Shown here piece by piece: positions 34,196 to 51,019 of a stretch of 52,163 nucleotides of DNA. Every line of letters begins with the position of its first letter. The first letter of the stretch is position 1. The DNA lies in NCBI GenBank assembly GCA_947628375.1, contig CANQZQ010000001.1:1-52163 (forward strand), written 5' to 3'. The position numbers were made by a program, and so were the translations under genes. Below the pieces are notes generated by a model. That model saw nothing but the letters and a program-made list of their open reading frames with translations. It was not told the DNA's origin and made no database searches. Source of the DNA: an uncultured Bacilli bacterium. Its GTDB lineage: Bacteria > Bacillota_I > Bacilli_A > RF39 > UBA660.

Positions 34196-35944
34196 TTAAT
34201 TTCCGCTAAAGAACATCATATCTGCAATATTTCTTTTTTTTCTTTTTTTCTTTTTATCTTCTTCTAATTTTTTATAATACATTCCATGTTCAAAAGCAGA
34301 GAATTTATCTTTCTTAATGCTCCTATTAGATTGTTTTAATATAATATTAACGCCTTCATTTTCTTCTACTAAATTAAGCATTTGATCTTTTAAAATAGTA
34401 GTTTGTGTAAATGGTATTAAATATTCTGCTCTCTTGTCTGGCGTCATATTTTGTCCAACCTTTGTAGATAATAATTTAGTTTTTGCTTGATTTTCATCAA
34501 TTAAAAATTTAATTTTCCCACTTGATAATTGAGTTTGAACATAAGTATGCATCTCAGTATTAATAGGCGCATTAGCTTTAATTAAATAAAGAGCATCATT
34601 TTCAACACCTGGACCTTTAATTTTTTTATATTTTTCCAAAGTATCTTCTGCGGTACCACCTTCTACACCAAATGGCGGCAACTCTTCTCCAGTATCTGGA
34701 TCTATTTGCGCTAAAATCATAAAATCTATTAATCCAGCACCTACACCATTTGCATCGATTGATAATGCTCTTGCATTATATTTATAATATAATTTCTTTA
34801 AATGAATTGCTTGTTTTTCAAAATCTTCTGCGTCATAAGTGTAAATATTAACAAGAGCAGCTAAATCAGCTCCTTGCACTTGCGGCGTAACCTTAATTAC
34901 CGCAACCTCAGTCATATCTCCAAAACGACCTACGTCGACACCCAATATATAATATTGACTTTTACCATTTCTTCCACTTGCTTCATACTCTGGTTGCAAT
35001 AGTACTCTATATTTATCATATTTTTCAGATGAGAAGAATGCATTTTCCGCATCACCACTTCATTCAGACTCGTATTCTCTTGAAAATGAACTATCATTAT
35101 AGGTTCCATCTAATTTTAAACCTTGAATAAAGTTTTTTGGTTGCAATCCTTCAAGCACTGGAATTCGTCATGTTCCGCCTAAAACCATGGCTTCCGCAGG
35201 ATTTATAATTTGTTGGATTAATAATTGAATTAATTTATCATAAGCAAATGCGTTTTTCCATCCTGCCGTAGTTACATAAATTTGAGATTTATTAGCAACT
35301 TCATCTTCTCTACTGCTTCCATCAGCTAATCTTCTATCTACTACCATTGTAGGAATAATAACTTCATTCAATAGCGTTTGGTCAATAAGAATAACCTCTT
35401 CCATTAAACCACCTGTTGCACGTTTACCACGAGAACTTTGTTGTGCAGCCATGATATCTAACTTGCTACCATTTTTAAATATATAAGTAACTTCATTTTT
35501 TGAAGCTTTTGAAGCTCCTCTTGACCAATCTATTTCATTTCTTAATCCAGGAATTAATTTAACTAATTCTTCTGCTTTTTCACGAGTAATTCCTGCAGCT
35601 TGCTCTTTCCCACCAGTAGTAACAAAGAAATGCGCTCTAGGATATAAAATGCAACGCAACATTAATACTAACACAGCTAAGAATGATTTTGAATAACCAC
35701 GCGGAAATGTTGCATATACATATTTATGACGCATTGCCGCCCTTAAAAATATCCTTTGATAAAAATATAATTGGAAATTTTCAGGATTATTTCCACATAA
35801 AAATTCAACAAACATATCTGGATATTCTCTTCAAAAGGCAACATACTGTCTAATAACAGGTAATTGCGCGCGAATTCTTTCTTCAGAAATCCCAATTTTA
35901 TTCATCTTTGAAGAAGATAATTCTAATAAATCTGCTAAAGCCAT
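34196..35944 (-). CDS. terL: terminase large subunit, 582 aa
   Basis: Fragments 34196..34999 and 35168..35815 plus an N-terminal extension to ATG 35942-35944 are all in frame through TGA. Walker A-like FPRGYSKS, Walker B-like GGLMEEV, and a nuclease half with ILGVDVG. Confidence 0.9.
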
Positions 35945-35945
35945 A

Positions 35946-37127
35946 TTACACATCCTCTTCCTCTGATGCTAATTCGTCCTCGTTTATTGCCTTTTGAGCT
36001 TCGATTTCCGCATAATACTCTTCAAAATCATTGTCCGCAAGTTCAATATTTTGATCAAAGCTTTCTTCCATTTCTTTTTGAATTTGAATTTTTTTAATAG
36101 CATCTTCAATTTGTTGACCAAAACCTAAGTCTTGAGTTACTAATTTTTGAACATAATCATTCATATCTTTTAAAGTGGCATCAACTTTATCTTGTGGTAC
36201 ATCTACTACATATCTAGGAATAAAGCCATCTCTTTCACACATAGTAATTAATTCACCAACAGAATCAACAAATTCATCTTTATTTTCTTTATTCTGTGCA
36301 GCAGTAAATTTTGCGGATTTTCTTAAATCGTTATATATTTTTGAATATTTTTGAAATCCCTCTATATCACCGCAATCAATAGCTTGGTTCATTTTTAAAT
36401 ATGTTTTACAAATTGTTATTAAAGTATTATCAGTATCTGCATCTTGAATATCGAAAGATTTTTTCATAGAGTCATAATTTTTTTCTAACTCTACTCATTC
36501 AGATGGCTTATAAAATCTTCCTCATTTCATAGCAAGATAGATTTTTTCATCATCTGTTAAATCTTCACCTAAATCTATTAATAGAGATTCGTCAATGAAA
36601 TCATCTGGATTTCCAAAAGGATTTTCCGCAGCTGAAGTTACTGCGGGAACCGCATAAACTAAATTTTTATTTTGTGTCTCTGTGCTAACTAATGTCTTAT
36701 ATTCAGCTTCAGAAATCTCCCCATTATCTAGCTGTTGTTTTAAATGTTCTTCGTATTTTTCACGCTCTGCCGCAACTGCTTTTTGTTTTTCTTCATTTAA
36801 CGCTTGTAGCTTTTCTGAGTCTGCTCATGTATATTGTTTCCATTGTTTTAACTTCATTTTAGATAAATATTTACCAAAAACAGATGTTCCATTTAAATTT
36901 GGATTTTTTGCAAAAGCTCTATCTCTTAAAACATTCCATTCTTCAGGAATATAAGGGACATCCATATCTTTTAATATTCATAAAAAAGTTTCTGGGTTAA
37001 AATTATCAATATGCATTGTTAGACATTTTTTACATAAATCTGCTTTAGATCCATCTCTTCTTTGATAGAATTGAGCATCTTCATCAAGCGCGCGTCCGCA
37101 TTTTAAGCATGTTTTTAAATTGCCCAT
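35946..37127 (-). CDS. Zn-ribbon protein upstream of terL, candidate small terminase/packaging accessory protein, 393 aa
   Basis: Track ORF 35946..36467 extends upstream through five TGA codons to ATG 37125-37127 (frame checked). N-terminal CLKCG...CKKC motif and an acidic C-terminus. Confidence 0.45.
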
Positions 37128-37133
37128 ATTATA

Positions 37134-38213
37134 TTACCTCTCTTTTTTATTTCTACATGCTTTGCATATAGAATATCAACCATCTTTTGATGTATTATTT
37201 TTTGAGAAGAACCGATTATGAGCTAATTTAACTTGTCCGCACCTAGAACATTTTTTCCATTTCCCATATTCTTTATAAGTATAATATCATATTAAATAAT
37301 TTTCTTTAGCCTTGTCCGCAATCATTTTTGGAATTTTATTACGCCACAATGAAGATAAATATTCCACAGTATAAGTAATATTAAATTCATCTTTTAATAA
37401 TTGTTGGATTTCCGCATTTGACTTTCCATCTATTTTATAAATTACTAATTTATAATATAGTGGATAATTTTCTTTTAGAGTGTCATCTACAAGATCGTCT
37501 AAATCTTCCATAAGGTATCAAAAATCTCAAGTAAATTTTCCTCAGCAATCTTCTTTTAAAGCAGAATAATTACAAAGTAATGCGCAAATATGTTCTGGAT
37601 TAAAAAATGATACTAAACAATCACTAGCTGGTTCTCCATTTTCATCGATTGTAATATTTTCATCTAATTTAGTTTTTGTTAAATTTTTTACACTTGCCGC
37701 ACTAGGCATTGCAGGTTTGTACGAATCTTTTATTACGTATTGCTCTTGATGCATTTCTATTAATCATTTTTTAAGTTTAAATCTTTGTTTGCCTGTTGCC
37801 GCCTTTTCCGCCTCTTCTACTATTTGAATTGCTTCTTTTAAATCTTTTAATGCTTTTATTTCTTCTATGTCTCTATTTGTTATTTCTTTCTTTTGTGTTA
37901 ATAATGTATTTTTATTTCCTTCTTCTAATATTAAATTTCATAAGCCATCTTCGCCATTTTCAAATTTATCTACTAAAGCTTGATAAGATGTTTCTCTTTT
38001 ATTTACTGTAATCATTCTATTGTCAGTAAGAATTAATTTTTCTTTCTTTTCTTCTGGAGTCATTGCGGAAACTATATAATCAGCTAATATTTCTATATAT
38101 TTTTTACTTTTTAATTGTTCTTTGGTTAAAGTCGGTAAAAGCTCGTTCACAAAAGCTTCACGCTCTTCCGCACTTTTTAAAGAATAATCTAGCTTTTTGT
38201 AGTTAGTTTCCAT
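37134..38213 (-). CDS. first gene of the late operon: candidate sigma-like/late transcription regulator with a C-terminal Zn ribbon, 359 aa
   Basis: Fragments 37287.., 37542.. and 37938..38213 are in frame through TGA, ending at TAA 37134-37136. The segment KIDGKSNAEIQQLLKDEFNITYTVEYLSSLWRNKIPKMI resembles a sigma region-4 HTH. CSRCG...CKAC at the C-terminus. Confidence 0.4.
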
Positions 38214-38238
38214 ATAAAAGAGTCTCCTTTCTCATTTT

Positions 38239-38267
38239 TTACATCTCTATTCTACCATAAAAAATTT
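38239..38267 (-). promoter_or_regulatory. promoter of the late-operon first gene
   Basis: TTGACA-17-TAGAAT, then N4-ATGTAA. Confidence 0.65.
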
Positions 38268-38297
38268 CTTTTGTCAAGCTCACTTTAAGAATATTAT

Positions 38298-38355: not shown

Positions 38356-38508
38356 ATGAGAAGAAAGAAATTAACAATTCCAACAAATTTACTACCGAAA
38401 CCAAGTAAAATTGTTAAAAGAGGAATTTATGAAATGGTTTCAAATTTAACTGGCGGCAATACTAAGCCAAGAGATTACGGTAAGCGACTAACAAAAGGCA
38501 AATACTAA
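38356..38508 (+). CDS. small basic protein, 50 aa
   Basis: ATG after AAGGAA; ends in TAA. Below the track size cutoff. Confidence 0.5.
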   Translation: MRRKKLTIPTNLLPKPSKIVKRGIYEMVSNLTGGNTKPRDYGKRLTKGKY

Positions 38509-38529
38509 AGGAGGTCATGAACCAGGTCA

Positions 38530-39396
38530 ATGTCGCTTCTGACCTGCGTTTCCGCAATGAAAGAGAAAATTTTAGATAAAGTAAAAGAACATTATGATTA
38601 CTTGTACGGGCTTGGGTATGAAGTTGTATTTACCGCGCTACAAGGTAGTCAAAATTATGGATTAGATGAATATAGTGATGAATATTACAGCGATGTTGAT
38701 ACTAAGAGTGTAGTGCTTCCTAAGTTCGCGGACTTTGTAGCAGCGAAGCCGCCTGTTTCCGCAGTTGAGATTATAAAAGATGAGCTCGGAAGGGATATTC
38801 ATGCTGAGGTAAAGGATATCCGCATTATGTTTGAAATGTTTTTGAAAGAAAATATTAGTTATATTGAGCTATTGTATAGTCAATATGTTATTGTAAATCC
38901 CAAATATAAATGGATATGAGATGAACTGATGGAATACAGAGAAGGCATTGCTTATTATGACGTTAAACAATTTGCTAAATGTATTGCGGGAATGGCTTAT
39001 GAAAAACAAAAGGCTTTATGTCATCCATATCCATCTGTGGCTAGTAAGATTGCGGCGTTCGGTTATGACGGCAAACAACTTAGCCATGCCGCGCGATTAC
39101 TTATATTTATCCATATGTGGTATGAAGGAATGACCATTGAAAAATGTTATACAGTTCCCGCAATTTTTAAAGAAGTTCTTATGAATTATAAAAAAGAAAA
39201 AGATGAGTGCGGGAATCCTATGAGCTGCGAAACCGCGGTTAAAAGAATGGATGATTATGTAAGCAAAATTAAAGCAATTAAAGATGAAATTGTAAATTCA
39301 AACGAATACGGTGTTAATGAGCGCGTTAAGAATTTTTTAGAGCGAATTAAAATTGCCGTATTGAAGCAATGGTTCCTAGAAGAATTGAAACCATGA
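38530..39396 (+). CDS. nucleotidyltransferase-fold protein (GS..YG...SD.D motif)
   Basis: Track ORFs 38530..38919 and 38929..39396 are in frame and joined by TGA at 38917. Motif LQGSQNYGLDEYSDEYYSDVDTK. Visibly more GC-rich than its neighbours. An alternative start is ATG 38557. Confidence 0.65.
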
Positions 39397-39412
39397 TAAA
39401 TAAAAATAATTG

Positions 39413-39482
39413 GAGGGTGAGAGTACCAGGCCAAACTCAAAATCGAACATTCGTTTGATTTTTTCCCAAAATCTCACCCCTT
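39413..39482 (+). terminator. compound hairpin terminator
   Basis: 8-bp outer stem gggtgaga/tctcaccc enclosing an inner hairpin and a T run. Confidence 0.5.
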
Positions 39483-39563
39483 AAAAACTTTGTAGAATAC
39501 GTTGCGTAGATTACATGTTTGCTCGGAGCGAGAACGCTTCTCAAGCTCCGCTATTTACACAAA

Positions 39564-39577
39564 CTTTACATGTAAAG
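39564..39577. promoter_or_regulatory. perfect 14-bp palindrome CTTTACATGTAAAG (operator candidate)
   Basis: Read directly. Flanked by further TTTACA-type half-sites at 39553 and 39581. Confidence 0.5.
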
Positions 39578-39670
39578 ATTTTGTAAAGCAAAAATTTGTT
39601 CGATAACAATTTAATATTATTCACAAAATTATTTAACAAAAAATAAATTAAAAAAATTTAAAAAAAACTA

Positions 39671-39699
39671 TTGACAAGTAATTATTCATGTGGTATAAT
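39671..39699 (+). promoter_or_regulatory. early promoter
   Basis: TTGACA-17-TATAAT with TG extension, then N4-ATGTAA. Confidence 0.7.
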
Positions 39700-39732
39700 A
39701 TAAATGTAAAATGAAAGAGGAGAGATGAGAAA

Positions 39733-39993
39733 ATGTTAAATAATGTAACTTTAGTTGGAAGATTAAATTGGTGTTGTGAACCTAAGAAAAGTTTTCAAAT
39801 CACAATAGAGAGTAGAGAAGAAACTATCGCAGTTGAAATCTATGCGAACGAAAGTATCTACAATGGACTTAATGATTATTGTGAAGTTGGCAATGTTATT
39901 GGTGTTAGAGGAAAAGTTGCTAAAAATGAAGATAATGAAATAATAATTCAAGCTGAAAAAGCAAGTATTTTATCTTCAACAATAAATAAATAA
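39733..39993 (+). CDS. short OB-fold, SSB-like protein, 86 aa
   Basis: N-terminus MLNNVTLVGRL resembles the start of an SSB OB fold. No acidic tail. Confidence 0.45.
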   Translation: MLNNVTLVGRLNWCCEPKKSFQITIESREETIAVEIYANESIYNGLNDYCEVGNVIGVRGKVAKNEDNEIIIQAEKASILSSTINK

Positions 39994-40010
39994 AAATTAA
40001 CAAAAAACTA

Positions 40011-40039
40011 TTGACAAATAAAAGGTTTAATGATATAAT
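40011..40039 (+). promoter_or_regulatory. early promoter
   Basis: TTGACA-17-TATAAT-N4-ATGTAA. Confidence 0.7.
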
Positions 40040-40069
40040 AATAATGTAATAAGAAAGAGAGAGATTAAA

Positions 40070-40270
40070 ATGAGTTGTTTAAAAGTATTAAATGCAAATG
40101 AAGAAGAGAAGTTCTTAGAAATGTATACAATAAGTAATTATTCTAAATGGTTAAAAGAAAATAATTATAGTTCAAGTTATGTTTCTTTAAGAAGATTTAA
40201 AGCTTATTGCTTTGCTTATGTAATTGAAAATGTATGTAATTCAATTAAAAATATTTTTGAAGAAAATTAA
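40070..40270 (+). CDS. hypothetical early protein, 66 aa
   Basis: Track ORF. Its 3' end runs into the next promoter's A/T-rich upstream element. Confidence 0.55.
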   Translation: MSCLKVLNANEEEKFLEMYTISNYSKWLKENNYSSSYVSLRRFKAYCFAYVIENVCNSIKNIFEEN

Positions 40271-40279
40271 AAAAAGTAT

Positions 40280-40308
40280 TGACAAGCTAAACAATGTATG
40301 ATATAATA
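40280..40308 (+). promoter_or_regulatory. early promoter
   Basis: TTGACA-17-TATAAT-N4-ATGTAA. Confidence 0.7.
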
Positions 40309-40340
40309 TAAATGTAAAAAGGAAAGAGAGAGATAGGTAA

Positions 40341-40511
40341 ATGAAAAAATTAGAAATTGAAAAAAGATTAGAGGAAATTGAAGACCACATCTTCTTAATT
40401 GAAATGATAGACAGATGGACAACAGAAGATGACAAATGCTTCTGCAGACTAGTTGAAGAACGCAATGACTTATTAAGTCAATTAGAAAGGTTGGTTTCAA
40501 ATGCTAACTAA
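40341..40511 (+). CDS. hypothetical early protein, 56 aa
   Basis: ATG after a purine-rich RBS. Overlaps the next gene by 11 nt. Confidence 0.5.
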   Translation: MKKLEIEKRLEEIEDHIFLIEMIDRWTTEDDKCFCRLVEERNDLLSQLERLVSNAN

Positions 40512-40836
40512 ACTAATGTATAAAATAAAAAGCAATAGAATTAATCAAGAGTTTTTTGAAAGCTTAACAACAGGAAAATGTTTTCACATTTCATTTATTG
40601 AAACTCAAGAGCAATCAATGTTAAAGCCAATTACAGATGTTAATGATTACATTGAGAGTTTAGAAAGTCAATTCTTTAAAGCTTCTTTATTAATAGATAC
40701 AACTCATTTTAAAATGTTTAAACTTGAAAGAGATAAATCTTCTAACGACTCAAAAGTTACATTGGCAAAAGTACCAAATGAATTACAAGAGAAGTTAATA
40801 GAATATTTATTTCAAGACCAAGAAGAACAAGAGTAA
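40501..40836 (+). CDS. hypothetical early protein, 111 aa
   Basis: Track ORF. Confidence 0.55.
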   Translation: MLTKLMYKIKSNRINQEFFESLTTGKCFHISFIETQEQSMLKPITDVNDYIESLESQFFKASLLIDTTHFKMFKLERDKSSNDSKVTLAKVPNELQEKLIEYLFQDQEEQE

Positions 40837-40947
40837 GACAAACACTTGTTCTTTTATTGTGGCTGGCGCGCGGGCGGCCGTCGCGCGCCGAGAGAGGCGA
40901 ACAAATGTCTGCTAGGTCTTTTGCGAACAAAAATTTGATATTCAAAG

Positions 40948-40961
40948 CGAACACTTGTTTC
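40948..40961. promoter_or_regulatory. CGAACACTTGTTTC, close match to the Gram-positive LexA (Cheo) box
   Basis: 13 of 14 positions match CGAACRNRYGTTYC. It is the third of three GCGAACA direct repeats (40897, 40923, 40947) upstream of a promoter. Confidence 0.35.
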
Positions 40962-40994
40962 CTAAAAGTTTTTTAAAAAATTTTAAAAAAAGTA

Positions 40995-41023
40995 TTGACA
41001 TTAACTACTATTGGTGGTATAAT
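40995..41023 (+). promoter_or_regulatory. early promoter
   Basis: TTGACA-17-TATAAT-N4-ATGTAA. Confidence 0.7.
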
Positions 41024-41058
41024 AAGTATGTAAGATAAAGAAAGAGAGAGAGTGGAAA

Positions 41059-41238
41059 ATGAAAAGAATTAAATGGGAAAATATTTCAGTAATGGTTATG
41101 GGGGTGCTAGATATTATGTCAGTAGTATCTCATATTAAATTAAATGGTCTTTACGCTGGGTTAGTTGGCGAGTTAGTTATTTATTTATTAATAACTTTCA
41201 GTGTCTATTACATAGTAAAAGATATTAGAAAAAATTAA
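41059..41238 (+). CDS. small membrane protein, 59 aa
   Basis: Two hydrophobic helices. Below the track cutoff. Confidence 0.5.
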   Translation: MKRIKWENISVMVMGVLDIMSVVSHIKLNGLYAGLVGELVIYLLITFSVYYIVKDIRKN

Positions 41239-41246
41239 AAAAAGTA

Positions 41247-41275
41247 TTGACATCAGGAAGTAAAAGTGCTATAAT
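41247..41275 (+). promoter_or_regulatory. early promoter
   Basis: TTGACA-17-TATAAT-N4-ATGTAA. Confidence 0.7.
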
Positions 41276-41306
41276 AATAATGTAATAAGAAAGAGAGTTG
41301 ATAAAA

Positions 41307-41498
41307 ATGACTGAAACTCAAGAACTAATTTTAGAAGACTTAGGTATTCTTTGTAGGGTATTTCCGCAACAACGCTTTGGACAAATATTTTATAACTATG
41401 TTTTGCGGTATTGTCCAGGGGCAGACCCATTCTACATTGAAGATGAAGACTTACTAAAATTATTAGAAAAAATTAAAAAAAGTGTTGACATTGAATAA
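41307..41498 (+). CDS. hypothetical early protein, 63 aa
   Basis: Track ORF 41298.. (TTG start) trimmed to the ATG. The next promoter (-35 at 41486) lies inside its last codons. Confidence 0.55.
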   Translation: MTETQELILEDLGILCRVFPQQRFGQIFYNYVLRYCPGADPFYIEDEDLLKLLEKIKKSVDIE

Positions 41499-41514
41499 CA
41501 AGTGTGTTATAATA
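41486..41514 (+). promoter_or_regulatory. early promoter
   Basis: TTGACA-17-TATAAT-N4-ATGTAA. Confidence 0.7.
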
Positions 41515-41547
41515 TAAATGTAATAAAGAAAGGGAAAGGTGATTACA

Positions 41548-41676
41548 ATGGCTATGACACCAACAAAAAGACACGCAATTCGTGCAAAATATGAGGCTGA
41601 AGCAAAAGCTCGCAAAAATGAAAGATTAGGTTTAAAACCAATTAAAGCTAATAATAAAAAAGGTAAGAGAAGATAA
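41548..41676 (+). CDS. small Lys/Arg-rich protein, 42 aa
   Basis: ATG after GGGAAAGG; ends in TAA. Confidence 0.4.
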   Translation: MAMTPTKRHAIRAKYEAEAKARKNERLGLKPIKANNKKGKRR

Positions 41677-41716
41677 TTTCTTCTCTACCTAATAAAATAG
41701 AAAGGAAATGATAAAA

Positions 41717-41866
41717 ATGGCAAAAGGAAAAGTAGTTAATAAAATAGTAGCAGATAAAAATGCGGCTCAATTCATGCGGACTGCGGCAAACCTTGTTAGA
41801 AAAGGCAAAACAAATAAAAAATTACACGGTAGAAATGCAAATCCAAGAGCTGCAAAATATAATTAA
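41717..41866 (+). CDS. small basic protein, 49 aa
   Basis: Conserved leader GGAAATGATAAAAATG; ends in TAA. Confidence 0.45.
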   Translation: MAKGKVVNKIVADKNAAQFMRTAANLVRKGKTNKKLHGRNANPRAAKYN

Positions 41867-41886
41867 GAGGGCAACCTCTTTTTTCA
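41865..41886 (+). terminator. intrinsic terminator
   Basis: aagagg-gcaa-cctctt stem followed by a T run. Confidence 0.6.
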
Positions 41887-42006
41887 TGCGTTGAGCGGCG
41901 CGCGGTCGATGGTCACGCGCCGCTTTGAGGAACGTGCGCAGCTTTACACTTTTTTACAGCGAAAATTTGTTCTATAAAAATTTTTTAAATTTCCTTAAAA
42001 AAACTA

Positions 42007-42035
42007 TTGACATTTGCTATCTATTGTTGTATAAT
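42007..42035 (+). promoter_or_regulatory. early promoter
   Basis: TTGACA-17-TATAAT-N4-ATGTAA. Confidence 0.7.
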
Positions 42036-42071
42036 ATTAATGTAATCAATAAGAAAGGGAAATGATAAAAA

Positions 42072-42815
42072 ATGATTAAACAAATTGATTTACAAAAAGA
42101 AAGATACTTAATATTTATTGATACTGAAACAATAGGTACATTAAATGTTAAAGAAAGTGTATTTCCATTTGAAATAGGCTTAAAAGTTTATGATAATGAG
42201 AATAAAAAAGTTGTTAAAGAAAAAAGTTATTTAGTGAGAAAGTTCTTTAATAATAAATTTATAATGTTATCTACATTTAGTGCTACAAAATATCCAAATT
42301 ATTTTGAAAAATTAGAAAATGATAAAAGATATAAAACTTGTAGTGTAACAGACATTGCAAAAGATATTGAAAAAATTATCGCTAGATACAACGCAAAAAT
42401 AATGGTCGCACATAATGGCGAGTTTGACAAGCAAGCTATGGCAAGATTATTTGAAGAGTTTGGAGTTGACAATCCATTTGAAAACATTGATTTATTAGAT
42501 ACTATGGAAGTATCAAGAGTAATTACATTTTCAAGAGATTATGCAAATTATTGTATAGAACATAAAGATATTTTAAACAGTGTAAAAGATAGTTGTTTTC
42601 TTACTAATAGTGGTCGAGTTAGAACAACAGCACAAGCAATTTATAGCTATGTTACTAATAACCCTGAATTTACCGAAGCTCACACAGGACTTGAAGATAT
42701 TGATATTGAAATAGCGATATTTGAAAAGTCTATGGAAATGTTAGGAAATACAATTGTTCGTTTGAATACTGCACCTACTTGGCGAGATTATTCAATAGTA
42801 TTAGAAGAAGATTAA
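42072..42815 (+). CDS. DEDDh 3'-5' exonuclease (DnaQ/RNase T-like), 247 aa
   Basis: Motifs FIDTETIG (Exo I), AHNGEFDKQ (Exo II) and HTGLEDIDIE (Exo III, H-x4-D). Confidence 0.75.
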   Translation: MIKQIDLQKERYLIFIDTETIGTLNVKESVFPFEIGLKVYDNENKKVVKEKSYLVRKFFNNKFIMLSTFSATKYPNYFEKLENDKRYKTCSVTDIAKDIEKIIARYNAKIMVAHNGEFDKQAMARLFEEFGVDNPFENIDLLDTMEVSRVITFSRDYANYCIEHKDILNSVKDSCFLTNSGRVRTTAQAIYSYVTNNPEFTEAHTGLEDIDIEIAIFEKSMEMLGNTIVRLNTAPTWRDYSIVLEED

Positions 42816-42873
42816 TCTTCTTCTAATACTTAGACAGGCGGCAGCCGGTTACTTCCTCCTTAACCCTAGCCGT

Positions 42874-42909
42874 GACGCGCATTCCACATCGGTTTCCGCG
42901 TCTTTTTTT
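42874..42909 (+). terminator. intrinsic terminator
   Basis: gacgcg/cgcgtc stem followed by T7. Confidence 0.55.
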
Positions 42910-42935
42910 ACATTGAGAAAAAATTATGATATAAT
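42907..42935 (+). promoter_or_regulatory. early promoter
   Basis: TTTACA-17-TATAAT-N4-ATGTAA. Confidence 0.65.
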
Positions 42936-42975
42936 ATAAATGTAAAAAATAAAGATAGAAAGGAAACATTAAAAC

Positions 42976-43170
42976 ATGGAAGTTTACGTTTTAATCGCTA
43001 GTGATGGCGTAATTAATGGCGTTTACTCTTCACAAGATAAATTAATAACTGACTTAACCGCATCTCTTGCAGGTATTAAAATTAAAAATATTGAAATTTG
43101 AGATACTGATAAAGGCTTTATTGATTATCTGAAGATAAACAAGAAAACCATAATTACTATTGAAAACTAG
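42976..43170 (+). CDS. small early protein, 64 aa (family C)
   Basis: Missed by the track because of an in-frame TGA at 43099. Paralogous to 43411..43650. Confidence 0.55.
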
Positions 43171-43254
43171 CGGACACAAAGACATGAACCCGAAAATGGT
43201 CATGCGGGTGTCGTTTCATTTTTATCCAGACCTCCTCAAGATTTTCTTTTAGAA

Positions 43255-43285
43255 AAAACGCGCATTTCCGCGTTTTTATTTTATC
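43255..43285 (+). terminator. intrinsic terminator
   Basis: aaaacgcg/cgcgtttt stem followed by a T-rich run. Confidence 0.55.
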
Positions 43286-43353
43286 CTGAAAGGGGGGCGC
43301 TTGCGACACGCCAGGCGACGTTGTAACTTTTTAAAAAAATTTAAAACTTTTTA

Positions 43354-43382
43354 TTGACATTAAATAATAGCTATGGTATAAT
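43354..43382 (+). promoter_or_regulatory. early promoter
   Basis: TTGACA-17-TATAAT-N4-ATGTAA. Confidence 0.7.
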
Positions 43383-43410
43383 GTTAATGTAATAAAGAAA
43401 GGGAAAGAAA

Positions 43411-43650
43411 ATGAAAATATACGTGTTATGGGATGACCGCAACTGCGGTGATAGTGAAATAATACTAGTTACCGCCGATTTAGAATTAATCAAAGCTAAA
43501 GTCAATGAAGTTTTTGATAGTGATGATGACAACCAACTACTATTCATAGAAGTATGGCAAGATAATGAAAAAGTCAGCAATGTAGAATTTGACGTTTACT
43601 GCGATATTAAAAATCATAAATACATAATTAAAAATTTTAAAGAAATTTAA
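43411..43650 (+). CDS. small early protein, 79 aa (family C)
   Basis: Track ORF. Confidence 0.6.
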   Translation: MKIYVLWDDRNCGDSEIILVTADLELIKAKVNEVFDSDDDNQLLFIEVWQDNEKVSNVEFDVYCDIKNHKYIIKNFKEI

Positions 43651-43659
43651 AAAAAGTGC

Positions 43660-43688
43660 TTGACAAGAAAAAGCAAAAGTGTTATAAT
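43660..43688 (+). promoter_or_regulatory. early promoter
   Basis: TTGACA-17-TATAAT-N4-ATGTAA. Confidence 0.7.
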
Positions 43689-43747
43689 AATAATGTAATA
43701 AAGGTTAAGCCAACCTTTATAAATAAAAGAAAGAGAGAGTGATAAAA

Positions 43748-44116
43748 ATGGCTGAAACAAAAAAAATGACAAAGAGAATGGTATTCGAGAGAGTAATCCA
43801 AGTAATCGAAACAACTGATGTTGAAGATAAGGACTTATTAATCGAAAAATTACATAATGAAATTGAATTACTAAACAAAAAAAATAATTCTTCTACCCCA
43901 ACAAAAGTACAAATCGAAAACCAAAGCATTAAAGAAAACATTATCAAAGAATTAAAAGCATTTGGTCGCCCAGCTACTGCTACTGAATTAATGGCAACTG
44001 AAACATTAAAAGGTTACTCAAACCAAAAATTAACTGCATTATTAACTCAATTAAATGATAGTGGTGCTATTAGCCGTGTTGTTGACAAGAAAAAAGCTTA
44101 TTTCTCTGCTAACTAA
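43748..44116 (+). CDS. early protein with a C-terminal winged-helix-like domain, 122 aa (family A)
   Basis: Track ORF 43739.. trimmed to the ATG. Paralogs at 44766..45164 and 50400..50750. C-terminus reads KLTALLTQLNDSGAISRVVDKKKAYFS. Confidence 0.6.
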   Translation: MAETKKMTKRMVFERVIQVIETTDVEDKDLLIEKLHNEIELLNKKNNSSTPTKVQIENQSIKENIIKELKAFGRPATATELMATETLKGYSNQKLTALLTQLNDSGAISRVVDKKKAYFSAN

Positions 44117-44139
44117 TGTTAAGGGCATTGTCCCTTAAC

Positions 44140-44428
44140 ATAAAGACTTAAAATTTTTTACCTCCTCTCTTTAAGTCTTTATGTTAGGGTGATAATGGTT
44201 GCAACCTCCTAAGGAGCTTTATGTTTTTCATCTAACCGAAAAATGAGGGTATTCGCTCACTTGAGAAGTGAAAGTAGATTTACTCCTGCTTAAAAGAGTA
44301 AAAGTCGCCACGAACTTAAAAATGGAGGCAATGTTCCATTGAATACTTGGAAAGCCTAGAGGGGTGCGGAAATTGGTCTGCACAAGTATTCAAAAATAAG
44401 GCAAACTGCAGAACGCCTTATTTTTTTG
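44140..44428 (+). ncRNA. structured non-coding trailer/candidate RNA ending in an intrinsic terminator
   Basis: No ORF in any frame, even with TGA read as Trp. Contains a series of hairpins, including a 12-bp stem at 44140-44182. Ends with an ataaggc/gccttat stem followed by T7 at 44396-44428. Confidence 0.3.
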
Positions 44429-44608
44429 TGTTCGACGGCTCGCGGACTAACGCCTCGAGCCGTTTGAGCGAACATTTGTATGCCTACGTATTTTTGTTCG
44501 CAAAAGTTGCTCTAATACATACTGATCCAGATCCTGAAAGGATCAAAGGGGCGCCGCCGCGAACATTTGTACGTATAAAAATTTTTTTAAAAAATTTTAA
44601 ATTTTCTA

Positions 44609-44637
44609 TTGACTTTATAAACCTATTATGTTATAAT
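44609..44637 (+). promoter_or_regulatory. orphan early promoter (no ORF before the next promoter)
   Basis: TTGACT-17-TATAAT-N4-ATGTAA. An RBS-like AGAAAGGAAAAG follows, but no start codon. Confidence 0.6.
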
Positions 44638-44706
44638 AATAATGTAATAAGAAAGGAAAAGCAAAAATACAAAATAAAAAAATTCAAAAAAAAATAAAAA
44701 AAATGC

Positions 44707-44735
44707 TTGACAACTTATTACAAAAGTGTTATAAT
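44707..44735 (+). promoter_or_regulatory. early promoter
   Basis: TTGACA-17-TATAAT-N4-ATGTAA. Confidence 0.7.
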
Positions 44736-44765
44736 ATAAATGTAAAAAGAAAGGAAATGATGAAA

Positions 44766-45164
44766 ATGGAAAAATTAACACAAAAACAAATGTTTGAAGT
44801 AATGAAAGGACACTTTGCAGACTTAGGCAACCAAGTTATAGGCTTTGCAACAGTAAAAGATAGCAATATCGAAGTTACTGCTGAAAATGTTGTAGACTTT
44901 ATTAACGGTCGTATTGAAGTATTAAGCAATAAGACTTCTCGCAAAGCACCTACTAAAACTCAAGTTGAAAATGAAAATATTAAAGCTTTAATCGTTGACG
45001 CTTTATCAAAAGCAGACAAACCAATGTCTATCAATGACTTAATGGCAATTGAAGGCTTAGGCTTCTCAAACCAAAAGTTATCAGCTTTACTTACTCAACT
45101 TGTTGATAATAAAGTAGTTGTACGTGTTATTGATAAGAAAAAAGTTTTCTTCTCAATAGCTTAA
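44766..45164 (+). CDS. winged-helix-like early protein, 132 aa (family A)
   Basis: Track ORF 44703.. trimmed to the ATG after GGAAATGATGAAA. Confidence 0.6.
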   Translation: MEKLTQKQMFEVMKGHFADLGNQVIGFATVKDSNIEVTAENVVDFINGRIEVLSNKTSRKAPTKTQVENENIKALIVDALSKADKPMSINDLMAIEGLGFSNQKLSALLTQLVDNKVVVRVIDKKKVFFSIA

Positions 45165-45258
45165 TCAAGTCAAGTCTACTTGACTTGACTTGACACCTAA
45201 GCAATGTAAATTAGATGTCAAGTGAAGTCAAGAAGATTGTGCTAAATGCTATCTTGAC
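45165..45258. repeat. cluster of GTCAAG/CTTGAC hexamers, including an 11-bp-arm palindrome
   Basis: tcaagtcaagt-ct-acttgacttga at 45165-45188. Further copies at 45189, 45217, 45227 and 45253. Confidence 0.7.
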
Positions 45259-45368
45259 CGCGGAAAAGGACATATTCCAAGTGCGTTAACTTTAAATAAA
45301 CCCGCGGCGGTGGGAATGTAGCACCATTCCCGCCACAAAAATTTTTTAAAATTAATGTTAATTTACTA

Positions 45369-45397
45369 TTGACATTTTATTATAGATATGATATACT
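45369..45397 (+). promoter_or_regulatory. early promoter
   Basis: TTGACA-17-TATACT. Confidence 0.6.
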
Positions 45398-45427
45398 ATT
45401 ATTGTAATAGGAAAGGGAAGTGAGAAA

Positions 45428-45859
45428 ATGAAAAACTATGTTGAAAATGGCAAAGTTATTGAAATCACACTTGATAATGACAAAAAAGTTAAAGTTATGA
45501 CTGAATGGGTAAACAAGACCATGCAAGCACTTGATACCGATAAAGAAGATGTATTGCTTATGTGGCTTGAGGACAACGGCTACCTAGTAAATGAAGAACA
45601 AGAAGAACTTGATAACCAAGCTAAAGGGGTTGTAAAAGTCGTTGCTAAGGCTGAAAAACCTAAAGTTAAGACACAAAAAGAAAGAGTGCAAAAAGAAAAC
45701 CCAACTAAAGAATTAATTATACAAACAATAGCAAAAGCACTTGAAAACCTTGATATTTCTAACTTAAACATTGAAAATAAAGCAAAACTTGTTACTTTTT
45801 CAATGAATAATGAAGATTTTAAAGTAGATTTAGTGCAAAAACGCAAACCTAAGGCATAA
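45428..45859 (+). CDS. hypothetical early protein, 143 aa (family B)
   Basis: Track ORF. Paralog of 49559..50008 on the opposite strand. Confidence 0.6.
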   Translation: MKNYVENGKVIEITLDNDKKVKVMTEWVNKTMQALDTDKEDVLLMWLEDNGYLVNEEQEELDNQAKGVVKVVAKAEKPKVKTQKERVQKENPTKELIIQTIAKALENLDISNLNIENKAKLVTFSMNNEDFKVDLVQKRKPKA

Positions 45860-45894
45860 AAAGTGCCTTAGGTAAGCAAAAAAGAAAGGAAATT

Positions 45895-46206
45895 ATGAAA
45901 AATTATAGAAAATTACTTACAAATTTATATCTTTTTAATGATATTACATATAAAATTGTTAAAAATAGAATAATAATTAAAACTAATAGAAAAAAATTCG
46001 ACAGCCCAGATTTTACTTATTACCTTGTTTTACATATCAATAGATTAACTCATAACATAACTAAAGTAGGTGCTTTAATTATGGATGATTTAGACTTTGA
46101 AATGTACGGCAAAAAAGTTGTTTCAAGTAGCACTCCCCATATTTTTACTGATGCGGACTTTGTAGAAACAAAAGGACACCCAGGCATAGAGTGGGGCAGT
46201 AGATAG
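45895..46206 (+). CDS. hypothetical early protein, 103 aa
   Basis: Track ORF after AGAAAGGAAA. Confidence 0.5.
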   Translation: MKNYRKLLTNLYLFNDITYKIVKNRIIIKTNRKKFDSPDFTYYLVLHINRLTHNITKVGALIMDDLDFEMYGKKVVSSSTPHIFTDADFVETKGHPGIEWGSR

Positions 46207-46228
46207 CGGAAACCCGCTATTTTTTTTG
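46203..46228. terminator. bidirectional intrinsic terminator
   Basis: atagcgg-aaac-ccgctat stem followed by T8. Confidence 0.6.
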
Positions 46229-46297
46229 TTAAGCTGATGTAAAGTTTACATTTACTTGACGCCTGGCGGCTGGTGCTCGACTGTGCGGCCGCCGCTT
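46203..46297 (-). ncRNA. candidate small GC-rich RNA made from its own consensus promoter
   Basis: The minus-strand promoter at 46303-46331 points into an ORF-less stretch of about 95 nt. This holds a GGCGGC...GCCGCC hairpin and ends at the bidirectional terminator. Confidence 0.3.
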
Positions 46298-46302
46298 TCC
46301 GC

Positions 46303-46331
46303 ATTATAACATACTTTTAACAATTTGTCAA
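46303..46331 (-). promoter_or_regulatory. antisense-oriented consensus promoter
   Basis: TTGACA-17-TATAAT on the minus strand. Confidence 0.55.
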
Positions 46332-46376
46332 GCAAAAAATGAAAAAAATATTTTTAAAATTTTTTCACAAAACCTA

Positions 46377-46405
46377 TTGACATTATTTAGCTACTATGCT
46401 ATAAT
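46377..46405 (+). promoter_or_regulatory. early promoter
   Basis: TTGACA-17-TATAAT-N4-ATGTAA. Confidence 0.7.
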
Positions 46406-46437
46406 AATAATGTAATAAAGGAAAGGGAAGATAAAAA

Positions 46438-46659
46438 ATGAAAGAAATGTATGTATTTTTAGACCCAGCATTAGGCGGGGACGCAGTTTATATTTTTGAT
46501 AACAAACAAGAGGCAGACAAGTTTATAAAATGGTATAAACAAGACCTTATTAATGAGGGTATGGAAGATATCGTTGATGATATTGAAGATATCAACTATT
46601 GGATTAAACCAATAATGACCTATGAACAAGCTAAAAAAGATTATGTGGAGGGCGATTAA
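46438..46659 (+). CDS. small early protein, 73 aa (possibly family C)
   Basis: Track ORF. Confidence 0.55.
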   Translation: MKEMYVFLDPALGGDAVYIFDNKQEADKFIKWYKQDLINEGMEDIVDDIEDINYWIKPIMTYEQAKKDYVEGD

Positions 46660-46660
46660 A

Positions 46661-46897
46661 ATGAGTAATGAATTTATTAAAGATTTTGAAAAAATTGGAA
46701 AATTCTTGTTAAAAGTTGAACTTATTGCAGACTGGAACATAGAAGACTTAAGCGATACGCATAAATGGGCAAAACTAGTTTTAACATTAAACACTAATGA
46801 ACCTCAACATTTGGAAATTACTTTTGACAAAGAGTATGGCTTCATTACAAATATTGAATATTCAAATGTTTTAGATTTATTAGACACAGCAGAATAA
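46661..46897 (+). CDS. hypothetical early protein, 78 aa
   Basis: Track ORF 46622.. trimmed to the ATG after GTGGAGGG. Confidence 0.55.
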   Translation: MSNEFIKDFEKIGKFLLKVELIADWNIEDLSDTHKWAKLVLTLNTNEPQHLEITFDKEYGFITNIEYSNVLDLLDTAE

Positions 46898-47681: not shown

Positions 47682-48038
47682 TTATTCTAAATTATTATAT
47701 TCTTCTGCCATTCGCATACTTTCTTCAAAAGCCTCATTCTCATAGTCTTCTTTTCTATTTACAATAGTCAAACTGCTTTTCAATCTGCCAATATCATTTA
47801 TAGTAAAGCTAATTTTATATAATACTGCCATTATATCTTTTCTATCAACAGCAGCTTCAGTATATAATACAACTAAATTACATAATTTATATAATATATT
47901 AACATCTATACTTTCTTCACCTTTATTCAATAGCCTAATATTATCAATACCAAAATAATCCTTTTTATTCAATAGACAATCAAATATAGCATTCTTAATA
48001 AACCAATTGCGGAAACCAAATGCTTTCCTTATATCCAT
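47682..48038 (-). CDS. hypothetical protein, 118 aa
   Basis: Track ORF 47682..48080 trimmed to the ATG after GGAAAGGAGG. A terminator hairpin lies at 47623-47660. Confidence 0.55.
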   Translation of the reverse strand: MDIRKAFGFRNWFIKNAIFDCLLNKKDYFGIDNIRLLNKGEESIDVNILYKLCNLVVLYTEAAVDRKDIMAVLYKISFTINDIGRLKSSLTIVNRKEDYENEAFEESMRMAEEYNNLE

Positions 48039-48158
48039 GCAAAAATACCTCCTTTCCCTAGCGCCACGATGCGACCCCACGTAATGTGGGGGCGCTTATA
48101 CATACAATTTCGAGCGAAGCGAGAAATTGTGTGTATCTTTATATTTATTATTTAGGTT

Positions 48159-48389
48159 TGATACATTGATACAATTTATACATTTGTATCAAACTCATTG
48201 GAACATTTGCTTATCATTGATACAAAGTATTAAAGCAAACCCTTAAAAATCAAACAATCGAGGTTTATTTTCTTGTGTATCATTTGTATCAATTTTGTTC
48301 ACATTGTGTATATCATTGTATAAATCATTTGTATCTTTGTATACATCCATTGATACATTTGTATCAATTGTATCATTCTCATTGATACA
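48159..48389. repeat. iteron cluster: at least 12 copies of TGATACA/TGTATCA (candidate replication origin)
   Basis: Copies at 48159, 48167, 48185, 48218, 48276, 48285, 48329, 48351, 48360, 48369 and 48383, among others. The cluster spans the 3' end of 48243..48794 and the downstream spacer. Confidence 0.6.
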
Positions 48390-48794
48390 ATGTTCATACC
48401 ATAATTTTTCTTTATTTTTCCACACATCTCTTCTAGCAATTCTTTGAACTCCACCACCACATTTATCAATTACTTGTTGTTCAGTTGGTTTAATTCCTTG
48501 TTTGCGAAAATCAAAATATACCCCCAAAATTTGCTCATCACTAATCTTCGGAGTAACCCCGCCCTTTTTGCCAATCTCTGCCGCCTTTTCTTTATATACA
48601 GCCTGCCCCTCAATCATTCTTTGCGGATTAGCTAACAATGCCCTAATAATAGCGTCCCCATTAACTTCTTGCGGTAATTCTCTATATACGCCCCAATAGC
48701 ATAAAGCATCTATAACTTTACATCTAGTTTCATAAGGCAATTCTTTTAAATCACTATAAAAAGTAGGAACAAAAGTAAAACTATTTTCTTTCAT
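48243..48794 (-). CDS. replisome-organiser / origin-binding-like protein, 183 aa
   Basis: Track ORF trimmed to the ATG after AAGGGGG. The iterons lie inside its own 3' end, as in lambda O and SPP1 G38P. The N-terminus FTFVPTFYSDLKELPYETRCKVIDALCYWGV resembles replisome-organiser N-terminal domains. Confidence 0.45.
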   Translation of the reverse strand: MKENSFTFVPTFYSDLKELPYETRCKVIDALCYWGVYRELPQEVNGDAIIRALLANPQRMIEGQAVYKEKAAEIGKKGGVTPKISDEQILGVYFDFRKQGIKPTEQQVIDKCGGGVQRIARRDVWKNKEKLWYEHCINENDTIDTNVSMDVYKDTNDLYNDIHNVNKIDTNDTQENKPRLFDF

Positions 48795-48987
48795 TGCGGC
48801 AACCCCCTTTCGCTTTCTCAAAGTCAGCTTCAAGGGTATCATCCATCTGAAATATTCAAGTTGTGTATTGAGGTTCTTCAGGATTTGGCATAGTTGTAAC
48901 AACTAAATGTCCCTTTTTTATTAAAAACATTGCAATTTTTAAACTATAAACTATTTTATATTCGTTATTATTAATATTCGTCTTCAT
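48781..48987 (-). CDS. hypothetical small protein, 68 aa
   Basis: ATG 48985-48987 lies 8 nt after TAGGAGG. One in-frame TGA; ends in TAG at 48781. Missed by the track. Confidence 0.5.
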
Positions 48988-49001
48988 ATATCGCAATCCT
49001 C

Positions 49002-49244
49002 CTATTTATTTAGTTCTTGCACATATTCTTTAGCATGAGGATTTTTATCTAAAAACTCTTTTAACTCTTCTATTTGTTTATCTTTACTTTTATCTATTTC
49101 AATATATACAGCATTCTTGCCTCTGCCTTGCTTAACTATTTCTACGCCATAATTTTTTAATATACTCTCTTTAATGCGCGGAAATCCATGCAAAACACTA
49201 TTTTCTTTATAATTATACTTTTCGCATAACTCTTGTAATGTCAT
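49002..49244 (-). CDS. small DNA-binding-like protein, 80 aa
   Basis: Track ORF after AAGGAG. The HTH-like segment is an inference. Confidence 0.5.
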   Translation of the reverse strand: MTLQELCEKYNYKENSVLHGFPRIKESILKNYGVEIVKQGRGKNAVYIEIDKSKDKQIEELKEFLDKNPHAKEYVQELNK

Positions 49245-49345
49245 AGCAGTCTAACTCCTTTCATATATATTTGAATTTCTGATATTCCAAAATATCCATT
49301 TTTGACCAAAATAATGCGGAAACACAGGTTAGAAGCAACATTAAT

Positions 49346-49465
49346 CTAGTCCATAGATTCCTTAACCGGCATCTCCGCATAGTATTCATTTATTTTATTA
49401 TTTGGTAATTCATAAATACCAAAATGTATTTTTAATCAAATTCAAACTATTAATACCCATTTCAT
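49346..49465 (-). CDS. small hydrophobic peptide, 39 aa (MKWVLIVWIWLKIHFG...)
   Basis: ATG after GGGAGG. Two in-frame TGA codons. Its 3' part shares 16 nt with gene 49559..50008 and may be a relic of it. Confidence 0.35.
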
Positions 49466-51008: not shown

Positions 51009-51019
51009 TTTATTTTGAA

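What the first reader, a model, noticed from the sequence alone, without database searches (positions are those of the whole stretch)
38356..46897. TGA-Trp codons are nearly absent from the plus-strand early arm but abundant in late genes
In the roughly 20 early genes between 38.3 and 46.9 kb I found only two in-frame TGA codons: 38917 in the nucleotidyltransferase and 43099 in a 64-aa protein. Trp there is otherwise TGG (e.g. LNWCC, VWQD, MTEWV, LMWLED, PTWRDY).

Late genes are the opposite. I counted about 24 TGA in the distal tail protein and about 15 in the tape measure. There are several more in the lysin, holin, terL, portal and the first late-operon gene.

This matches the published idea that stop-codon recoding in phages gates late and lysis gene expression. 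Early genes would be translatable in a standard-code cell, while late genes would need TGA suppression. The two early exceptions would give truncated products under code 11.
Basis: partly seen in the sequence, partly recalled or inferred. Interest (0 to 1): 0.65.

Follow-up and report, generated by a model that had tools for sequence, protein, structure and literature searches.

The report
Stop-codon recoding spares early phage genes
This 52-kb piece of a roughly 140-kb gut phage reads the stop codon TGA as tryptophan in most of its late (virion, lysis) genes and almost never in its early genes; this is a clean new example of an already published pattern, not a new phenomenon.

Summary
With curated genes, the plus-strand early arm (19 genes, 1,912 codons) has 3 in-frame TGA and 17 TGG. 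The late arm (28 genes, 12,380 codons) has 88 TGA and 57 TGG (Fisher p=1.6e-4). The general A/G third-position shift is small (odds ratio 0.67, against 0.11 for TGA/TGG).

TGA means Trp: 36 of 58 aligned window TGAs face TGG in a nearly standard-code relative. The pattern is family-wide. Orthologues in TGA-recoded relatives give late 166:117 against early 3:34. TAG-recoded sister lineages show the same contrast for TAG.

At shared Trp sites, 37% of late comparisons differ between TGG and TGA, against 1 of 21 early ones. This argues for selection against TGA in early genes.

The window is only about 38% of the genome and carries no tRNA. Relatives carry a UCA-anticodon tRNA in an array that would lie beyond the contig end. 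The rest of the bin uses the standard code and has RF2.

- a third early TGA (39394, penultimate codon);
- eight TGA-free late genes, including the probable capsid and tube genes;
- the dependence of the count on excluding spurious intergenic ORFs.

The pattern was published by Borges et al. (2021/22, "Agate"-type phages).

The parts
38356..46897 (+). Early arm: 19 small genes, TGA 3 : TGG 17, all ending in TAA or TAG. Includes a nucleotidyltransferase (38530-39399), an OB-fold protein (39733-39993) and an exonuclease-like protein (42072-42815).
   Evidence: counts; weak family hits; promoters.
38917..38919 (+). In-frame TGA, codon 130 of the nucleotidyltransferase. Orthologues have Ile, Phe or Met here, and homology continues to residue 286.
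39394..39399 (+). TGA-TAA tandem at the end of the nucleotidyltransferase gene. This is the third early TGA and has no real effect under code 11.
43099..43101 (+). In-frame TGA, codon 42 of the 64-aa protein, at a conserved Trp. The codon is TGG in two relatives and TGA in two.
39671..46424 (+). About 13-14 repeated early promoters: A-rich upstream tract, TTGACA, 17 nt with TG, TATAAT, then ATGTAA and a GAAAGG-type ribosome-binding site.
   Evidence: 23 matches against 5.1 expected; 14 in this contig, at most 1 in any other contig of the bin.
38235..38278 (-). Early-type promoter (TTGACA-N17-TAGAAT, then ATGTAA) in front of the first gene of the late arm.
   Evidence: Read from the sequence; repeat D20.
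37134..38213 (-). First late-arm gene, 359 aa, TGA 7 : TGG 2, with a C-terminal zinc ribbon. Labelled 'sigma factor' by PHROG only.
   Evidence: No Pfam, PDB-sequence or PDB-fold support.
32083..37127 (-). Packaging block: phrog_3314 protein (4:2), large terminase (3:2), HNH endonuclease (0:0), portal (2:0).
21155..31998 (-). Head/neck/tube block, TGA 10 : TGG 15. The probable major capsid gene 29045-30070 is 0:4 and the structural gene 24098-25042 is 0:1.
7395..21053 (-). Tape measure (12771-21053, 15:12) and the 1761-aa tail protein (7395-12680, 24:12), directly upstream of the lysis genes.
5358..6811 (-). Lysis cassette: CHAP endolysin (5801-6811, 3:3) and holin (5358-5789, 2:1).
77..5353 (-). 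Distal late genes of unknown function, heavily recoded (5:5, 7:1, 4:0, 1:1).
47682..52163 (-). Second early-type block, convergent with the early arm, TGA 1 : TGG 8, with five early-type promoters at 50.0-51.9 kb. In relatives the tRNA array lies upstream of this block, beyond the contig end.

Best explanation
The window is about 38% of a roughly 135-145 kb virulent phage of a low-GC Gram-positive-type gut bacterium. The phage has reassigned TGA from stop to tryptophan.

The host most likely terminates at TGA with RF2. Any phage gene that must be translated on arrival therefore has to avoid TGA. Selection keeps the promoter-rich early arm essentially TGA-free.

Late genes are translated after a phage-encoded UCA-anticodon tRNA has accumulated. 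That tRNA is carried in the tRNA array of relatives and is presumed to lie just beyond this contig. In late genes AT mutation pressure converts TGG to TGA freely, so packaging, tail and lysis proteins cannot be completed until the code has switched.

What is shown:
- the codon contrast;
- TGA = Trp;
- recurrence of the pattern across the family;
- the difference in TGG/TGA turnover between early and late genes.

What is inferred:
- the host's code (binning only);
- the presence of the suppressor tRNA in this phage;
- the timing of expression.
For: - **Counts and controls:**
- **TGA = Trp:** 36 of 58 aligned window TGAs face TGG in relative G003. This is the same profile as window TGG (31 of 45).
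- **Family-wide replication with orthologues only:** TGA-recoded relatives give late 166:117 against early 3:34 (p=2e-9). TAG-recoded relatives give late TAG:CAR 111:362 against early 0:35 (p=2e-4).
- **Turnover at shared Trp sites against 15 TGA-recoded relatives:** late comparisons differ in 143 of 388 cases, early in 1 of 21. Early genes are therefore held at TGG within the same genome pairs.
- **Suppressor tRNA in relatives:** G003 and G002 carry a 96-nt tRNA(UCA) next to tRNA-Trp(CCA). G001, the closest large relative and strongly recoded, carries the same tRNA split by an intervening sequence of roughly 640 nt.
- **Position of the array:** synteny places the tRNA array beyond the window's right end.
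- **Host code:** the other 121 contigs of the bin are code 11, with RF1 and RF2. TGA ends 9% of long ORFs there.
- **Early promoters:** they are near-perfect sigma-70 type.
- **Published model:** Borges et al., bioRxiv 10.1101/2021.08.26.457843.
Against: - No tRNA lies in the window, so the switch is not demonstrated for this phage.
- The phage-host link rests only on binning. The contig is 30.7% GC against about 25% for the rest, and no spacer-like matches were found.
- Two early genes do carry internal TGA.
- Eight late genes carry no TGA, and four more carry TGA only in their last 10 codons. The gate is therefore partial.
- The early sample is small (20 Trp codons) and depends on rejecting eight intergenic ORFs.
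- Relatives are not phylogenetically independent, so the pooled p-values overstate the support.
- In relatives the tRNA array seems to sit in early-type transcription units. Any delay would come from tRNA accumulation, not from late transcription.
Confidence: 0.7

Rival explanations
1. Efficiency, not timing. Suppression of TGA always competes with RF2 and is slow or leaky. TGA is therefore purged from any gene that needs high output, early or late, and tolerated in genes needed in few copies.
For: - The probable major capsid gene (0:4), the structural gene 24098-25042 (0:1) and the head/neck/tube block as a whole (10:15) are TGA-poor compared with other late genes (78:42, p=0.025).
- The early arm does not differ significantly from that block (p=0.10).
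- Early genes sit behind very strong promoters.
Against: - The tape measure and tail proteins, which are few per virion, fit this model. So do terL and portal. This means the model does not separate itself from the timing model.
- Many tiny early genes of unknown abundance are all TGA-free.
- The same early/late split is seen for TAG in sister lineages.
- The two models can both be true.
Confidence: 0.2
2. History, not selection. The early arm is a mosaic of modules recently imported from standard-code phages and has not had time to accumulate TGA.
For: - Early genes are poorly conserved. Only about 8 of 19 have detectable orthologues in G001 or G003.
- Their GC3 is higher (0.22 against 0.14).
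Against: - The early genes that are conserved and syntenic across the family stay TGG. Late genes in the same genome pairs flip between TGG and TGA at 37% of shared Trp sites.
- The early promoter module is shared across the whole family.
Confidence: 0.06
3. No code conflict exists. The true host reads TGA as Trp (a Mycoplasma-type code), and the uneven TGA use is only compositional or a gene-calling artefact.
For: - The phage-host link is by binning only.
- Counting eight doubtful ORFs removes significance.
Against: - The bin encodes RF2 and is code 11.
- Relatives carry their own tRNA(UCA), which a code-4 host would make unnecessary.
- A nearly standard-code relative exists (G003).
- The A/G third-position control and the orthologue-only tests exclude composition and ORF calling as causes.
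Confidence: 0.04

Closest known systems
TGA-recoded 'Agate'-type gut phages (Borges et al., bioRxiv 10.1101/2021.08.26.457843; published 2022)
   Same: - Genomes of about 127-150 kb from animal guts.
- TGA read as Trp.
- Structural and lysis genes recoded while early and replication genes stay in standard code.
- The tail protein just upstream of the lysis cassette is among the most recoded genes.
- Close relatives use code 11, code 4 or code 15.
- A suppressor tRNA is found in only some genomes.
- A standard-code relative that already carries a TGA suppressor fits the proposed evolutionary path.
   Different: Clade membership was not tested because no Agate reference sequence was available. 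Points added here:
- gene-by-gene counts and an A/G third-position control;
- a TGG/TGA turnover comparison;
- TGA-free abundant virion genes;
- an early-type promoter in front of the late arm.
phAss-1 / proposed Phassvirus (Babkin et al. 2023, PMC10607447)
   Same: - terL is 45% identical.
- Genome of 136 kb from the human gut.
- Stop-codon recoding with suppressor tRNAs.
- Belongs to the same wider group as the TAG-recoded loci.
   Different: It recodes TAG (code 15), not TGA.
TAG-recoded crAss-like and Lak phages (cited in the Borges preprint; Peters et al. 2022, PMC9523058, listed but not read)
   Same: Late and lysis genes carry the recoded stop, while early genes use the host code.
   Different: They are unrelated phages of Bacteroidota that read TAG as Gln. 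Proteomic validation exists for these phages but not for TGA-recoded ones of this family.

Membership tests
TGA-to-Trp recoded phage of a standard-code host | In-frame TGA in conserved phage genes, aligned with Trp in relatives | tested here: met
   Coverage by open frames rises from 0.52 to 0.87 when TGA is read as sense. 36 of 58 aligned TGAs face TGG in G003.
TGA-to-Trp recoded phage of a standard-code host | Recoded codon concentrated in late/lysis genes and spared in early genes | tested here: met
   Early 3:17 against late 88:57, p=1.6e-4. Replicated in relatives.
TGA-to-Trp recoded phage of a standard-code host | Phage-encoded suppressor tRNA (anticodon UCA) or another code-change device | tested here: inconclusive
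   None in the window, but the window is a fragment. Present in relatives G002 and G003, and split in G001.
TGA-to-Trp recoded phage of a standard-code host | Host uses TGA as a stop codon | tested here: inconclusive
   The other contigs of the bin are code 11 with RF2 (SPF motif), and 9% of long ORFs end in TGA. The phage-host link is by binning only.
Agate clade (Borges et al.) | Placement within the clade on a large-terminase tree | not testable with these tools
   No Agate reference sequences were on hand. Genome size, mixed codes and the recoded tail protein next to the lysis genes are consistent.
Phage sigma factor (phrog_5767), for gene 37134-38213 | Recognisable sigma-70 region 2/4 domains or fold | tested here: not met
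   The PHROG hit has E=1.4e-47. There is no Pfam hit, no PDB sequence hit with the single sequence or a profile, and no PDB fold match for a model with pLDDT 78. The viral fold hits are unnamed or zinc-ribbon proteins.

The most novel reading that the evidence does not exclude
The code switch, rather than a transcriptional cascade, is the main late-gene timer in this phage family. The late arm begins with an early-class host-type promoter, so its mRNA may be made from the start of infection. Completion of each protein would then depend on n successive TGA read-throughs. This gives a steep, threshold-like response to suppressor-tRNA level: 7 TGAs in the first late gene, 24 in the tail protein. 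The most abundant virion proteins have been cleared of TGA so that they are not limited once the switch has occurred.
Probability: 0.15. Interest if true: 0.6.

Novelty: new member of a known kind. Interest (0 to 1): 0.3.

Why it matters
The finding adds a well-resolved example to the published model that phages use stop-codon reassignment to hold back late and lysis proteins. The example includes statistics, a composition control and a turnover test across relatives.

The family is useful for studying code change. Within 54-84% terL identity it contains standard-code, TGA-recoded and TAG-recoded members, and both recoded types spare the early arm.

It matters practically for annotation. Under code 11 the tape measure, tail, terminase and lysis genes of such contigs are shredded. 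The suppressor tRNA can be missed because it has an extra arm or is split.

Tried and rejected
- **Greedy code-4 ORF calling on the early arms of 55 relatives.** Rejected as too noisy. In standard-code and TAG-recoded relatives it reads through real TGA stops and inflates the counts. It was replaced by orthologue-only counts.
- **Other pieces of this phage in the bin.** The search used the code-4 signal and the early promoter motif. None was convincing.
- **Terminal repeats.** None were found at the contig ends.
- **A longer contig by exact protein look-up.** Only an 876-bp contig was found.
- **Rfam on 38-52 kb.** Only chance-level microRNA hits appeared, with no tRNA-like or known RNA in the GC-rich intergenic blocks.
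- **Rfam on the interrupted tRNA of G001.** There was no group I intron hit, so the intron type is unconfirmed.
- **The 'sigma factor' label of the first late gene.** Tested against Pfam, PDB sequence and profile searches, and a structure prediction with fold searches. It was not supported, so the idea that the code switch gates a late sigma factor was dropped to a low-probability reading.
- **Literature search for a tRNA with two anticodon arms.** Nothing was found in the held library.
Full report
**What the window is.** The window is the whole of contig C1 (52,163 bp, 30.7% GC) of a 1.30-Mb, 122-contig metagenome bin whose other contigs are about 25% GC.
- Stop-free frames of at least 150 codons cover 0.52 of C1 under code 11 and 0.87 when TGA is read as sense. 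For the other contigs the figures are 0.87 and 0.94, which is no more than the gain from freeing TAG.
- The bin encodes RF1 (PVT motif, next to prmC) and RF2 (SPF motif).
- In the bin, 9% of long ORFs end in TGA.
- C1 has no tRNA, no terminal repeat and no other piece in the bin that I could recognise.

**Gene layout.**
- The minus strand from 38,213 down to 77 is a late arm. In order it holds a 359-aa zinc-ribbon protein that PHROG labels a sigma factor, a phrog_3314 protein, the large terminase, an HNH endonuclease, the portal, head/neck/tube genes, a 2,760-aa tape measure, a 1,761-aa tail protein, a CHAP endolysin, a holin and four unknown genes.
- The plus strand from 38,356 to 46,897 holds 19 small genes. 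Most are preceded by a repeated module: an A-rich tract, TTGACA, 17 nt, TATAAT, ATGTAA and a GAAAGG-type ribosome-binding site. There are 23 matches to the -10 core against 5.1 expected. Fourteen full modules lie in C1, and at most one in any other contig of the bin.
- A convergent minus-strand block at 47.6-52.2 kb has five similar promoters.

**Check of the observation.**

| Gene set | Genes | Codons | TGA | TGG |
|---|---|---|---|---|
| Early arm (38356-46897, +) | 19 | 1,912 | 3 | 17 |
| Late arm (77-38213, -) | 28 | 12,380 | 88 | 57 |
| Right-hand early-type block (47.6-51.6 kb, -) | 7 | 875 | 1 | 8 |

- The early TGAs are at 38917, 39394 and 43099.
- Fisher p is 1.6e-4 for early against late, and 3e-6 when the right-hand block is added to the early set.
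It is the penultimate codon of the nucleotidyltransferase and is followed directly by TAA.

**Composition control.**
- Early genes are slightly richer in G at third positions. Pooled NNA:NNG is 782:114 early and 5176:507 late (odds ratio 0.67).
- The TGA/TGG odds ratio is 0.11.
- Given the general shift, about 10 of 20 early Trp codons should be TGA. Three or fewer has probability 0.001.
- In both gene classes TGA is rarer than other A-ending codons, so recoding is incomplete everywhere.

**Dependence on gene calls.**
- Eight further plus-strand 'ORFs' are open only because TGA is not counted as a stop. They lie in promoter or GC-rich intergenic DNA.
- Counting them adds 16 TGA and 4 TGG and removes significance (p=0.15).
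- Their TGA density is about 3.2% of roughly 500 codons (lengths). That is the out-of-frame background (4.3%), not that of genes (0.16% early, 0.71% late).
- They lack ribosome-binding sites.
- The tests on relatives below do not use ORF calling at all.

**TGA means Trp.**
- Of 58 window TGA codons that align with relative G003, 36 face TGG, 8 face Tyr or Phe and 2 face TGA.
- This is the same profile as for window TGG codons (31 of 45 face TGG).
- Against G001, window TGA faces TGA 30 times and TGG 9 times.

**The family.**
- terL finds 80 IMG/VR loci. The best annotated GenBank relatives are Geobacillus virus E3, large Enterococcus phages, SPbeta-like Bacillus phages and the TAG-recoded human-gut phage phAss-1.
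- Near-complete relatives are 136-144 kb. One of them, G003, has terminal repeats.
- Synteny shows that the window corresponds to about 38% of such a genome. The tRNA array of relatives (16-27 tRNAs) lies beyond the window's right end.
- G003 is almost standard-code but already carries a 96-nt tRNA with anticodon UCA next to tRNA-Trp(CCA). G002 has the same tRNA.
- G001 is the closest large relative and is strongly recoded. It has the same tRNA interrupted after U34 by roughly 640 nt. The last exon base is U and the last intervening base is G, but there is no Rfam intron hit.
- The family contains standard-code, TGA-recoded and TAG-recoded members.

**The pattern is family-wide.** Only tblastn-defined orthologues of the window's curated genes were used.
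- Ten TGA-recoded relatives give late 166:117 against early 3:34, with the same direction in each.
- Three TAG-recoded relatives give late TAG:CAR 111:362 against early 0:35.
- These genomes are related, so the pooled p-values (2e-9 and 2e-4) are not independent tests. The TAG lineages are, however, a separate recoding event.

**Selection rather than lag.**
- At Trp positions shared between the window and 15 TGA-recoded relatives, late genes differ in codon (TGG against TGA) in 143 of 388 comparisons.
- Early genes differ in 1 of 21, and 18 of those 21 are TGG in both genomes.
- Within the same genome pairs, and so over the same time, late genes drift freely between the two codons and early genes do not.

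**The two exceptions.**
- Codon 130 of the nucleotidyltransferase is Ile, Phe or Met in relatives, and homology runs on to residue 286. The TGA is therefore a recent sense codon. Code 11 would leave a 129-residue fragment. That fragment holds most of the region matched by the family models (residues 11-149) but loses the conserved C-terminal half.
- Codon 42 of the 64-aa protein is a conserved Trp. It is TGG in two relatives and TGA in two.
- Both genes therefore need read-through for a full product.

**Late genes are not uniform.**
- Eight of 28 late genes have no TGA. These include the probable major capsid gene (0:4; the Pfam capsid hit is only weak), the structural gene 24098-25042 and the HNH endonuclease.
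- Four more have TGA only within their last 10 codons. One of these (27768) forms an ATGA overlap with the next start, as an ancestral stop would.
- The head/neck/tube block is 10:15 against 78:42 for the rest (p=0.025).
- This suggests that output, as well as timing, shapes TGA use.

**Mechanism.**
- The best-supported reading is the published one. Genes translated before the phage's suppressor tRNA is available must avoid TGA. Later genes tolerate it, and essential packaging, tail and lysis proteins cannot be completed before the switch.
- The first late-arm gene has an early-type promoter (TTGACA-N17-TAGAAT followed by ATGTAA) and carries 7 TGA.
- I could not confirm that this gene encodes a sigma factor. 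The idea that the code switch gates late transcription, or replaces transcriptional timing altogether, therefore remains a low-probability reading.

**Novelty.** The phenomenon is published for crAss-like, Lak, Agate and other phages. This is a new genome fragment showing it clearly.

Noticed in passing
window 39671-46424 (+), 38235-38278 (-), 50032-51916 (-): About 20 copies of one promoter module: A-rich tract, TTGACA, 17 nt with TG, TATAAT, then a conserved ATGTAA. The module is also repeated many times in the early arms of relatives of all three genetic codes. The conserved ATGTAA after the -10 element is unexplained.
   Followed up: partly
window 40897, 40947, 41959, 44468, 44559, 47079 (+): The motif GCGAACAnnTGT recurs in GC-rich intergenic blocks just upstream of early promoters (8 matches against 1.6 expected). 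From memory it resembles the Gram-positive LexA box CGAAC-N4-GTTCG. It may be an operator for a host or phage repressor.
   Followed up: partly
L122 8971-9066 (G003); L085 830-925 minus (G002); 16 IMG/VR contigs L129-L144: The UCA-anticodon tRNA of relatives has a tRNA-Trp-like body and a second complete arm in the variable-arm position. That arm has the loop CUCCAAA, which is the normal Trp anticodon loop, and its outer stem pairs covary among 13 distinct sequences. Earlier notes of this scan describe the same design in other genomes.
   Followed up: partly
G001 98145-97430 minus strand (L118 about 17430-18145): The same two-armed tRNA(UCA) is interrupted after U34 of the anticodon loop by roughly 640 nt, so ARAGORN misses it. 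The splice-site bases fit a group I intron, but Rfam gives no intron hit.
   Followed up: partly
L097 893-1266 minus strand (G002): Relative G002 encodes a tmRNA (tag peptide ANKVKSLFTVNALSFA) inside its tRNA array.
   Followed up: no
loci L004-L083: One phage family (terL 54-84% identical) holds standard-code, TGA-recoded and TAG-recoded members. G003 is nearly standard-code yet already has the tRNA(UCA), and its few TGAs are concentrated at 70-85 kb.
   Followed up: partly
window 27766-27769; also 4100-4102, 5382-5384, 6857-6859, 25098-25100: Five late genes have a TGA 2-10 codons before their TAA or TAG. One of them forms an ATGA overlap with the next start codon. These look like ancestral TGA stops that are now read through to a nearby back-up stop.
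   Followed up: partly
window 43748-44116, 44766-45164 (+), 50400-50804 (-): Three paralogous small early proteins share a C-terminal domain (72% DNA identity over 96 nt between the first two; cross-hits).
   Followed up: no
window 33737-34105 (-): An HNH homing-type endonuclease lies between the portal and terminase genes and has no Trp codon of either kind. The Borges preprint reports an intron endonuclease as preferentially recoded in Agate phages.
   Followed up: no
window 44118-44197 and 50327-50392: Long, near-perfect hairpins in intergenic DNA were picked up only as chance microRNA-like Rfam hits. They are probably terminators.
   Followed up: no
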